A stretch of DNA of 64,000 nucleotides. It comes from Escherichia phage SholemSchwarzbard. The notes below the pieces were generated by a model that had not been told where the DNA came from, ran no database searches, and was given only the letters and a program-made list of their open reading frames with translations. The position numbers were made by a program, and so were the translations under genes. The stretch lies in the sequence record PP925840.1; one strand, 5' to 3'. Positions 26,147 to 26,785 of this stretch are shown here, piece after piece; the first letter of the stretch is position 1, and the number at the start of each line of letters is the position of its first letter.

Positions 26147-26334
26147 TATTCTTCTACATGTTGTTTACGACCTTTCTTATCAATAAAGGTATATTCAACG
26201 AATGTTCCAATGTAGTCTTTATCTACATCATGTGGACTATTAATTGGACATTTAGTACGGCAAATGCGTTCCCATTGACGAATAATTACTGCTTTGTTTT
26301 TAGGATCAAACGGATGTGGGTAATGCACTTTCAT
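26122..26334 (-). CDS. hypothetical protein (tk.3 position)
   Basis: 70-aa ORF. Confidence 0.45.
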   Translation of the reverse strand: MKVHYPHPFDPKNKAVIIRQWERICRTKCPINSPHDVDKDYIGTFVEYTFIDKKGRKQHVEEYCLKVTWL

Positions 26335-26785
26335 AATCCACCACTATTAAATCAATATCAGGAGTAAACATGTCGATTAATTTAGAAACCTTATCCCAAT
26401 CGCCGCCAGCAATACCACAACCTATGCGTGGAATGTAAATTACCGGTTTAAACAAAAGGGTTTCTGCCTGTAGATTTAATTCTATCATGCAGTTTACTAA
26501 AGCACCATAATCAAGATTAGGACCTGGTTCGTATTGCGTATACAAGTTATAACATATGCCAAAACCATTAGGTTTATGTTTAAAAACAATAGACATATCG
26601 CCTAATTTATCACGAGAACCGTACTCAGTAGTGGTTTTATCTATTTCTAAAATTTTGGGATAGGCTCTTGCTAATTGACCCGCTACACCTGAACCCATAG
26701 TATGAAAACAATTGCACCCGTGCGCAATAATATTACCTTGAAGAAATAGGGCGACAATATCGCCCTTGATATATTTTACAATCAT
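26306..26785 (-). CDS. macro-domain-like protein (tk.4 position)
   Basis: 159 aa; N-terminal GDIVALFLQGNIIAHGCNCFHTMGSGVAGQLA resembles the macro-domain ADP-ribose-binding glycine-rich loop. Confidence 0.55.
   Translation of the reverse strand: MIVKYIKGDIVALFLQGNIIAHGCNCFHTMGSGVAGQLARAYPKILEIDKTTTEYGSRDKLGDMSIVFKHKPNGFGICYNLYTQYEPGPNLDYGALVNCMIELNLQAETLLFKPVIYIPRIGCGIAGGDWDKVSKLIDMFTPDIDLIVVDYESALPTSV

What the first reader, a model, noticed from the sequence alone, without database searches (positions are those of the whole stretch)
26306..26785. Macro-domain-like protein in the tk-regB accessory block
The 159-aa ORF begins GDIVALFLQGNIIAHGCNCFHTMGSGVAGQLA, resembling the glycine-rich ADP-ribose-binding loop of macro domains. 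Macro domains reverse or read ADP-ribosylation, which is used both by T-even phages and by bacterial defence systems, so a phage macro domain is a plausible counter-defence or regulatory factor.
Basis: inference. Interest (0 to 1): 0.5.

Follow-up and report, generated by a model that had tools for sequence, protein, structure and literature searches.

The report
T4-type phage macrodomain Tk.4 (AdfM)

Summary
Window 26306..26785 (- strand) encodes a 159-aa single-domain macrodomain protein. It passes Pfam Macro (33.1 bits against a cut-off of 22). The AlphaFold2 model is confident (pLDDT 94), and its best solved-structure matches are TARG1, BT1257, Poa1p and DarG. The window is a T4-like phage (Tequatrovirus). 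The gene lies between vs and tk.3, so it is the positional ortholog of T4 tk.4, and near-identical phages already annotate it as a macro domain or phosphatase.

A 2025 preprint (HIDEN-SEQ) showed that deleting tk.4 makes T4 sensitive to DarTG2 and named the gene adfM. The most likely function is therefore removal of DarT2-made ADP-ribose from thymidines in phage DNA.

Two details go beyond the existing annotation:
- The catalytic Lys of DarG and TARG1 is an invariant Gln (Q84) in this family, as in Streptomyces SCO6735, which also cleaves thymidine-linked ADP-ribose. The PhiKZ protein also called AdfM keeps the Lys and belongs to a different subfamily.
- This allele is only 57% identical to T4 Tk.4, although the flanking DNA is 95-100% identical. 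That is a gene-precise allele swap, and both alleles are common.

The allele's activity has not been tested. Verdict: real, correctly read, already known, of modest interest.

The parts
26306..26785 (-). tk.4/adfM ortholog: 159-aa single-domain macrodomain protein (stop codon included)
   Evidence: ORF list. Pfam Macro 33.1 bits against cut-off 22. PHROG 335, E = 1.6e-71. AF2 pLDDT 94.1. Foldseek top hits are TARG1, BT1257, Poa1p and DarG. 57% identical over 155 aa to T4 Tk.4, E = 1e-69.
26782..26785 (-). ATGA overlap: the tk.4 start codon (26785-26783) overlaps the vs stop codon (26784-26782), the arrangement expected for translational coupling; GAGGA lies 11 nt upstream of the ATG
   Evidence: Read directly from the sequence. 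The same junction is identical in T4.
26681..26722 (-). Codons for H22-A35 (HGCNCFHTMGSGVA): first ADP-ribose-binding loop, including invariant N25 (26711-26713)
   Evidence: H22, G23, N25, C26, G33 and A35 are invariant in 49 homologs. By my inspection of the two sequences, the TVN motif of PhiKZ AdfM corresponds to GCN here, putting N25 opposite N23; the N23A mutant has reduced activity. By my residue-number offset reasoning, not a printed alignment, N25 also corresponds to SCO6735 N27; N27S almost abolishes activity. H22 aligns with Poa1p H23 and T29 with Poa1p S30.
26534..26536 (-). Codon CAA for Q84, at the position of the catalytic Lys of DarG (K80) and TARG1 (K84)
   Evidence: hhalign aligns window YNLYT-Q with DarG INFPT-K. 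The HMMER profile aligns 'NlYtq' with TARG1 'YLITK'. Q84 is invariant in 49 homologs. SCO6735 has Gln85 at this site and Q85A is inactive (PMC9411070).
26396..26431 (-). Codons for P119-W130 (PRIGCGIAGGDW): second, diphosphate-binding loop
   Evidence: P119, G122, G124 and W130 are invariant. The loop is almost identical to SCO6735 PRIGCGLAGGTW and BT1257 PRIGCGLAGGKW. A126 stands where TARG1 has catalytic D125.
26301..26762 (.). Stretch that differs from T4 (45-82% nucleotide identity in 60-nt windows) while both flanks are 92-100% identical: a gene-precise allele replacement of tk.4
   Evidence: blastn against T4 and windowed identity. Protein identity 57%.
26782..27123 (-). Upstream neighbour vs (valyl-tRNA synthetase modifier), same strand
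26122..26334 (-). Downstream neighbour, the tk.3 ortholog (70 aa); its start lies 29 nt inside the 3' end of tk.4 (4 nt in T4)

Best explanation
The ORF is this Tequatrovirus's version of T4 tk.4 (adfM), a free-standing macrodomain ADP-ribosylglycohydrolase that acts as a counter-defence enzyme. When the host toxin DarT2 of a DarTG2 system attaches ADP-ribose to thymidines in single-stranded phage DNA and blocks replication, the protein most likely binds the ADP-ribose in its macrodomain pocket and cuts the ribose-thymine bond, restoring normal DNA. It is an 'orphan antitoxin' that lacks the DarT-binding domain of DarG. The chemistry is probably of the SCO6735 type, not the Lys-dependent DarG/TARG1 type: Gln84, held in place by Asn25, positions the distal ribose for attack by an activated water. 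Shown here: the macrodomain identity and fold, orthology to T4 tk.4, and the make-up of the active site. Taken from the literature: the anti-DarTG2 phenotype, shown genetically for the T4 allele only. Inferred: enzymatic removal of ADP-ribose from DNA by this allele, and the Gln-type mechanism.
For: Macro domain: Pfam above threshold; AF2 pLDDT 94.1; Foldseek probability 1.00 to TARG1, BT1257, Poa1p and DarG, TM-score normalised to the query 0.67-0.79. DarG relationship: NCBIfam DarG E = 1.6e-6 and PADLOC DarG E = 4.5e-7, both over the macro part only; hhalign probability 98.6% to a set of three DarG macrodomains plus PhiKZ gp104. Orthology: same slot between vs and tk.3 with flanks 95-100% identical to T4; 57% identity over the full length to T4 Tk.4. 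Function of the ortholog: tk.4 was the single HIDEN-SEQ hit on a DarTG2 host and a clean knockout made T4 sensitive; T2 and T4 lacking adfN remain DarTG2-resistant, and T2 carries a Tk.4 100% identical to T4's. Precedent for the chemistry: SCO6735 cleaves thymidine-linked ADP-ribose with Gln85 in place of the Lys, and Q85A is dead and N27S nearly dead. The window protein has Q84, N25 and the same PRIGCGxAGGxW loop, all invariant in the family.
Against: No experiment exists on this allele, which differs from T4 Tk.4 at 43% of positions. The T4 evidence is genetic and comes from a preprint; no biochemical assay of T4 Tk.4 on DNA substrates was found in the passages retrieved. The catalytic Lys of DarG is absent, so DarG-like chemistry cannot be assumed. 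In sequence the family sits closer to BT1257, TARG1 and Poa1p than to DarG, and those enzymes have other or unknown substrates. The DNA-binding lysines of the SCO6735 mobile loop (K89, K94) have no evident lysine at the corresponding stretch (QYEPGPNLDYG).
Confidence: 0.7

Rival explanations
1. It reverses ADP-ribosylation of protein or RNA and not of DNA. The targets could be marks laid down by the phage's own Alt/ModA/ModB transferases, which would tune host takeover, or marks made by other host ADP-ribosylating toxins.
For: The nearest solved relatives include TARG1, a protein ADP-ribose hydrolase. SCO6735 acts on both protein and DNA substrates. T-even phages carry their own ADP-ribosyltransferases (PMC9503650). 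The divergent allele could have a different substrate range.
Against: The TARG1 Lys84/Asp125 dyad used for protein-linked ADP-ribose is absent (Q84, A126). The only phenotype found for the T4 ortholog is DarTG2 sensitivity. SCO6735 did not act on 2'-OH RNA ADP-ribosylation; the same paper is inconsistent about 5'-phosphate-linked substrates, reporting no activity in Results but activity on RNA phosphate ends in the Discussion.
Confidence: 0.15
2. It is an ADP-ribose-1''-phosphate phosphatase (Poa1p-like), as the old T4 annotation 'phosphatase, A1pp motif' implies, and processes a small-molecule by-product of RNA repair or NAD metabolism.
For: T4 tk.4 is annotated 'phosphatase; contains A1pp phosphatase motif', and PHROG 335 is labelled 'phosphatase'. 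Poa1p is a strong sequence and fold match. Two residues deposited as Poa1p point mutants are kept or conservatively replaced: H23 corresponds to H22 and S30 to T29.
Against: The annotation was transferred from a domain name and was never tested. H22 is shared with TARG1 and BT1257, so it does not point specifically to phosphatase activity. Poa1p F152 corresponds to A126. From general knowledge, the T4 tRNA repair route (Pnk/Rnl) does not produce ADP-ribose-1''-phosphate. A phosphatase role would not explain the DarTG2 phenotype.
Confidence: 0.07
3. It protects without catalysis, either by binding and blocking DarT2 directly or by sequestering an ADP-ribose-containing molecule.
For: Catalytically dead SCO6735 Q85A, DarG K80A and TARG1 K84A all still inhibit DarT by interaction. 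The sharp allele replacement is the pattern expected if a protein-protein interface is under arms-race selection.
Against: All pocket residues needed for hydrolysis in SCO6735 (N, Q, G-x-G) are invariant across homologs down to 41% identity, which points to selection for catalysis. The protein lacks the C-terminal DarT-binding domain of DarG: it has 159 aa and matches only positions 2-138 of the 338-position model.
Confidence: 0.06

Closest known systems
T4 Tk.4 = AdfM (anti-DarT factor Macrodomain), bioRxiv 10.1101/2025.11.20.689424
   Same: Same genomic slot between vs and tk.3. Similar length (159 against 155 aa) and same single-domain architecture. 57% identity over the full length; the first 34 residues differ at only four positions (16-19). 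All family-invariant pocket residues are kept.
   Different: 43% of residues differ, although the flanking DNA is 95-100% identical. The second loop reads GCGIAGGDW here and GAGIGKGNW in T4; the window form matches the family consensus. There are four extra C-terminal residues and a 29-nt overlap with tk.3. Activity against DarTG2 has been shown only for the T4 allele.
Streptomyces coelicolor SCO6735 (PDB 5E3B), a macrodomain that cleaves thymidine-linked ADP-ribose on DNA
   Same: ALC1/TARG1-like macrodomain. Gln at the position of the DarG/TARG1 catalytic Lys. Asn in loop 1. Nearly identical PRIGCGLAGGxW loop. Stand-alone protein not encoded next to a darT gene.
   Different: It is bacterial and DNA-damage induced. 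It has a longer mobile loop with two lysines implicated in DNA binding, and no evident lysine occupies the corresponding stretch here. Overall sequence similarity is modest (phmmer E = 1e-7).
DarG antitoxin of DarTG2 (PDB 5M31, 5M3E, 5M3I) and PhiKZ gp104 'AdfM' (Cell Rep 2026, PMC13309987)
   Same: Macrodomain fold (TM-score about 0.72-0.73). Conserved loop-1 Asn. Same biological target, thymidine ADP-ribosylation by DarT2.
   Different: DarG and gp104 keep the FPTK catalytic Lys, whereas the window protein has Q84. DarG has a second, DarT-binding domain. gp104 matches Mtb DarG at E = 9e-25 but aligns with the window protein only weakly (E = 0.001 over 33 residues). The two proteins named AdfM therefore belong to different macrodomain subfamilies.
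Human TARG1/OARD1 (PDB 4J5S) and Bacteroides BT1257 (PDB 2FG1)
   Same: These are the best fold matches (TARG1) and best sequence matches (BT1257, profile E = 6e-20). BT1257 also has Gln at the Lys position.
   Different: The TARG1 Lys84/Asp125 dyad is replaced by Q84/A126. BT1257 is deposited as a 'conserved hypothetical protein' / 'protein of unknown function'.
Yeast Poa1p, ADP-ribose-1''-phosphate phosphatase (PDB 6LFQ)
   Same: Shares the H-x-C-N-C motif and loop 1. H23 corresponds to H22 and S30 to T29.
   Different: Similarity fades after about residue 80 in the single-sequence search. F152 corresponds to A126. No phosphatase role is supported by phage genetics.

Membership tests
Macro domain (Pfam PF01661) | Profile score at or above Pfam's gathering threshold over most of the domain | tested here: met
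   33.1 bits against 22; residues 22-136 cover profile positions 2-117 of 118.
Macro domain (Pfam PF01661) | Three-layer alpha/beta/alpha macro fold | tested here: met
   AF2 pLDDT 94.1, pTM 0.89. 172 PDB matches at E <= 0.001; the 50 best listed are macrodomains or designed proteins built on a macrodomain scaffold.
ALC1/TARG1-like macrodomain class (TARG1, DarG, SCO6735, BT1257, Poa1p) | Closest to members of this class and not to the MacroD, PARG or viral Mac1 types | tested here: met
   The top 15 Foldseek hits and all profile hits at E <= 0.001 are class members. The MacroD/YmdB-type NCBIfam model scores only E = 0.006.
T4 Tk.4 / AdfM | Positional orthology: between vs and tk.3 in the tk-regB block of a T4-like genome | tested here: met
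T4 Tk.4 / AdfM | Full-length sequence homology to T4 Tk.4 | tested here: met
   57% identity, 155 of 155 aa aligned without gaps, E = 1e-69.
T4 Tk.4 / AdfM | Needed for phage growth on a DarTG2 host | not testable with these tools
   Shown only for the T4 allele. It needs a plaque assay with this allele.
DarG antitoxin (NCBIfam NF048014, equivalog) | Score above the curated cut-off, and two-domain architecture with a C-terminal DarT-binding domain | tested here: not met
   27.6 bits against a cut-off of 250. Only model positions 2-138 of 338 are matched and the protein has only 159 aa.
DarG antitoxin (NCBIfam NF048014, equivalog) | Catalytic Lys (Taq DarG K80) in the FPTK motif | tested here: not met
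   Gln84 occupies the position and is invariant in 49 homologs.
DarG antitoxin (NCBIfam NF048014, equivalog) | Encoded next to a darT toxin gene | tested here: not met
   The neighbours are vs and tk.3.
SCO6735-type thymidine-ADP-ribose hydrolase | Gln at the Lys position, a loop-1 Asn that holds it, and the G-C-G diphosphate loop | tested here: met
   Q84, N25 and G122-C-G124 are present; the residue roles come from PMC9411070. The Q84-Gln85 equivalence is by transitivity through TARG1 and DarG and by residue numbering, because only residues 113-138 were aligned directly to SCO6735. The N25-N27 equivalence is by residue-number offset only.
SCO6735-type thymidine-ADP-ribose hydrolase | Hydrolysis of DarT-modified DNA in vitro | not testable with these tools
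   Needs a biochemical assay.
Poa1p-type ADP-ribose-1''-phosphate phosphatase | Residues that were mutated in the deposited Poa1p structures (H23, S30, F152) | tested here: inconclusive
   H23 corresponds to H22 (kept), S30 to T29 (conservative) and F152 to A126 (lost). H22 is also present in TARG1 and BT1257, so it does not discriminate.

The most novel reading that the evidence does not exclude
The sharp, gene-precise replacement of tk.4 in otherwise near-identical T4-type genomes may mark a specificity-determining arms-race locus. At least two common alleles are only 57% identical, and intermediate alleles exist. On this reading the window allele would neutralise a different set of DarT2 variants, or a different ADP-ribose linkage, than the T4 allele. 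It would do so with a Gln-based, Lys-independent mechanism not yet described for any phage enzyme.
Probability: 0.2. Interest if true: 0.55.

Novelty: already known. Interest (0 to 1): 0.25.

Why it matters
Phage macrodomains that erase DNA ADP-ribosylation are a newly recognised class of counter-defence, and they help set host range against DarTG2-carrying bacteria, as shown for PhiKZ on clinical Pseudomonas isolates. This window adds no new kind of gene. It does raise two points worth a short experiment. First, the T4-type AdfM family lacks the DarG catalytic lysine and resembles SCO6735, so 'DarG-like' is a loose description of how it works. Second, two very different alleles circulate on the same genomic backbone, which gives a natural test of whether anti-DarT factors differ in specificity.

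Tried and rejected
The NCBIfam O-acetyl-ADP-ribose deacetylase model scores only E = 0.006, 16.5 bits against a cut-off of 291, and MacroD-type structures rank below TARG1, Poa1p and DarG.
- Membership of DarG proper: rejected. It fails on score, architecture, catalytic Lys and neighbourhood.
- Equivalence with PhiKZ AdfM gp104: rejected at subfamily level.
- An extra gene between tk.3 and tk.4: this was my first reading of the ORF map, and blastn against T4 corrected it. Window 26122..26334 is tk.3 itself; the extra or diverged ORFs lie further downstream at 25555-26131.
- Promoter and terminator scan of 24900-28600: no enrichment over shuffles (12 promoter-like sites against 13.3 expected). 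It gave only a plausible site upstream of regB.
- The GC-rich hairpin at 26748-26766: the 96-nt segment containing it does not fold better than shuffles (z = -1.03), and it lies in a stretch identical to T4, so covariation cannot be assessed.
- The CmdTAC paper: checked for a link to phage macrodomains and none was found.
- dN/dS between the alleles: not attempted, because at 57% amino-acid identity synonymous sites are saturated.

Full report
**1. Observation.**
The minus strand of the window carries a 159-aa ORF at exactly 26306..26785, from ATG to TGA. Its start codon overlaps the stop codon of the upstream gene in an ATGA junction. Its last 29 nt overlap the start of the downstream gene.

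**2. Genomic setting.**
The 3.3-kb block around the ORF is 99% identical to several Tequatrovirus genomes, including Escherichia phage vB_EcoM-G157lw, phage GiZh and Shigella phage A2. In Shigella phage A2 the same ORF is already annotated 'macro domain containing protein, IPR002589'. The local gene order on the minus strand is regB, vs.1, vs, this ORF, tk.3, further small ORFs, tk. The ORF therefore occupies the slot of T4 tk.4, which the T4 RefSeq record labels 'phosphatase; contains A1pp phosphatase motif'. The A1pp (macro) match of tk.4 orthologs was reported in 2006 (PMC1524935).

**3. What the protein is.**
- Pfam Macro (PF01661) matches residues 22-136 at 33.1 bits, above the gathering cut-off of 22.
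- PHROG 335 matches at E = 1.6e-71.
- Among solved structures, the single-sequence search finds BT1257, Poa1p, SCO6735, Mtb DarG and TARG1.
- A profile of 49 homologs ranks BT1257 (6e-20), TARG1 (1e-17), SCO6735 (3e-16), Poa1p (3e-14), Mtb DarG (2e-11) and Taq DarG (5e-9).
- The NCBIfam and PADLOC DarG models match, but only over their macro part.
- An AlphaFold2 model built on the 49-sequence alignment is confident, with mean pLDDT 94.1 and pTM 0.89.
- Foldseek against the PDB returns TARG1, BT1257, Poa1p and DarG first, at probability 1.00 and TM-score normalised to the query of 0.67-0.79.

The protein is a single-domain macrodomain of the ALC1/TARG1-like class, not of the MacroD/YmdB type.

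**4. Function known from relatives.**
- A November 2025 preprint (HIDEN-SEQ, 10.1101/2025.11.20.689424) reports that tk.4 was the only significant T4 gene depleted on a host expressing DarTG2. A clean knockout made T4 sensitive to DarTG2. The authors named the gene adfM and inferred enzymatic removal of ADP-ribose from DNA.
- This fits earlier work showing that T2 and T4 stay DarTG2-resistant without adfN (PMC11825919). T2 carries a Tk.4 100% identical to that of T4.
- Independently, a 2026 Cell Reports paper gave the same name to PhiKZ gp104. It showed in vitro removal of DarT2-made ADP-ribose from DNA, with an N23A mutant impaired (PMC13309987).

**5. Active-site anatomy.**
- In 49 homologs (41-95% identical to the window protein) the invariant residues are G8, H22, G23, N25, C26, G33, A35, D49, G62, N80, Y82, Q84, P119, G122, G124 and W130.
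- Profile-profile alignment to a set of three DarG macrodomains plus PhiKZ gp104 (probability 98.6%) places window Q84 opposite the Lys of the DarG FPTK motif.
- The HMMER profile alignment to TARG1 places Q84 opposite K84 and A126 opposite D125.
- The catalytic Lys of DarG and TARG1 is therefore replaced by an invariant Gln. BT1257 also has Gln there.
- SCO6735 of Streptomyces coelicolor also has Gln (Gln85) at that site and cleaves thymidine-linked ADP-ribose on DNA. Q85A abolishes its activity, N27S nearly does, and a water-mediated mechanism was proposed (PMC9411070).
- The window protein shares the PRIGCGxAGGxW loop with SCO6735 almost residue for residue.
- The Q84-Gln85 correspondence rests on transitivity through TARG1 and DarG and on residue numbering. 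Only residues 113-138 were aligned directly to SCO6735.
- The loop-1 Asn (N25) matches PhiKZ N23 by my inspection of the two sequences, and SCO6735 N27 by a residue-number offset. Neither match comes from a printed alignment.
- I therefore infer SCO6735-type chemistry, not DarG-type chemistry.
- PhiKZ gp104 keeps the Lys and matches Mtb DarG at E = 9e-25. It aligns with the window protein only weakly, E = 0.001 over 33 residues. The two proteins named AdfM belong to different subfamilies.

**6. A divergent allele.**
The window protein is only 57% identical to T4 Tk.4. At the DNA level the flanks are 92-100% identical to T4, while the body of the gene (about 26301-26762) drops to 45-82% identity. 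This is a gene-precise allele replacement. Both alleles are common in the phage collection: 312 records are at least 90% identical to the window type and 224 to the T4 type. Intermediate alleles at 62-81% exist in metagenomes. The pattern fits recombination and diversifying selection at an anti-defence locus, but that is inference. Whether the alleles differ in specificity is unknown.

**7. Rival explanations.**
- *Phosphatase.* The old 'phosphatase' label rests on a domain name only. Poa1p H23 and S30 correspond to H22 and T29 here, but F152 corresponds to A126, and H22 is also present in TARG1 and BT1257.
- *Protein or RNA de-ADP-ribosylation.* This cannot be excluded, because SCO6735 and TARG1 act on several substrate types. 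The TARG1 dyad is missing, however, and the only known phenotype is DarTG2 sensitivity.
- *Non-catalytic inhibition of DarT.* This is possible, since dead mutants of SCO6735, DarG and TARG1 still inhibit DarT. The invariant pocket residues argue for catalysis.

**8. Verdict.**
The observation and the interpretation are both supported. The macro assignment is already present in public annotation, and the counter-defence role has been shown for the T4 ortholog, so the finding is already known. Two points remain of interest:
- the Gln-type active site of the T4-type AdfM family;
- the sharply bounded allelic divergence.

Confidence that this is a macrodomain is about 0.98. Confidence that it acts as an anti-DarTG2 ADP-ribosylglycohydrolase is about 0.7.

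Noticed in passing
window 25555..26131 (- strand ORFs 25564..25749, 25746..25922, 25919..26131): The stretch between tk and tk.3 does not match T4 tk.1/tk.2, apart from 67% identity over 178 nt. It holds three small ORFs where T4 has two. One is a Cys-rich 70-aa ORF (…CEKCKWPVVFALCNDEMACDFDYWCYCSNKGCINH…) that looks like a small zinc-binding protein. All are 'hypothetical' in phage A2.
   Followed up: partly
window 26748..26766: A perfect 8-bp GC-rich hairpin (AGGGCGAUAUUGUCGCCCU) lies 19 nt downstream of the tk.4 start codon, inside the codons for KGDIVAL. It is identical in T4. The 96-nt segment containing it does not fold better than shuffles (z = -1.03), and no covariation data are available. 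It may be chance, or a translational or RNA-processing signal.
   Followed up: partly
window 26782..27123 (vs) and 27116..27661 (vs.1): Both upstream genes start with signal-peptide-like N-termini (Vs: MTKILVLCIGLISFSALADTS; Vs.1: MRKALLAGLLAISMMAHSSE). Vs.1 is annotated as an SLT transglycosylase in phage A2. An exported location would sit oddly with the classic label 'valyl-tRNA synthetase modifier' for Vs. The HIDEN-SEQ preprint reports vs as conditionally important in minimal medium.
   Followed up: no
window 26306..26334: In this allele tk.4 overlaps the start of tk.3 by 29 nt, against a 4-nt overlap in T4. The allele replacement therefore also changed the coupling geometry with the downstream gene.
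   Followed up: partly
window 28158..28186 (- strand): The best sigma-70-like site in the block (TTTACT, 17-nt spacer, TG, TATAAT; 10 of 12 matches) lies just upstream of regB. It could drive early transcription of regB, vs.1, vs and tk.4. The scan as a whole is not enriched over shuffles.
   Followed up: no
literature, not a window coordinate: A 2026 preprint (10.64898/2026.06.19.733364) lists the T2 tk.4 transcript among the RIL-seq partners of the host sRNA ArcZ and lists the protein among those identified in its proteome. It mislabels tk.4 as a 'putative thymidine kinase'.
   Followed up: no
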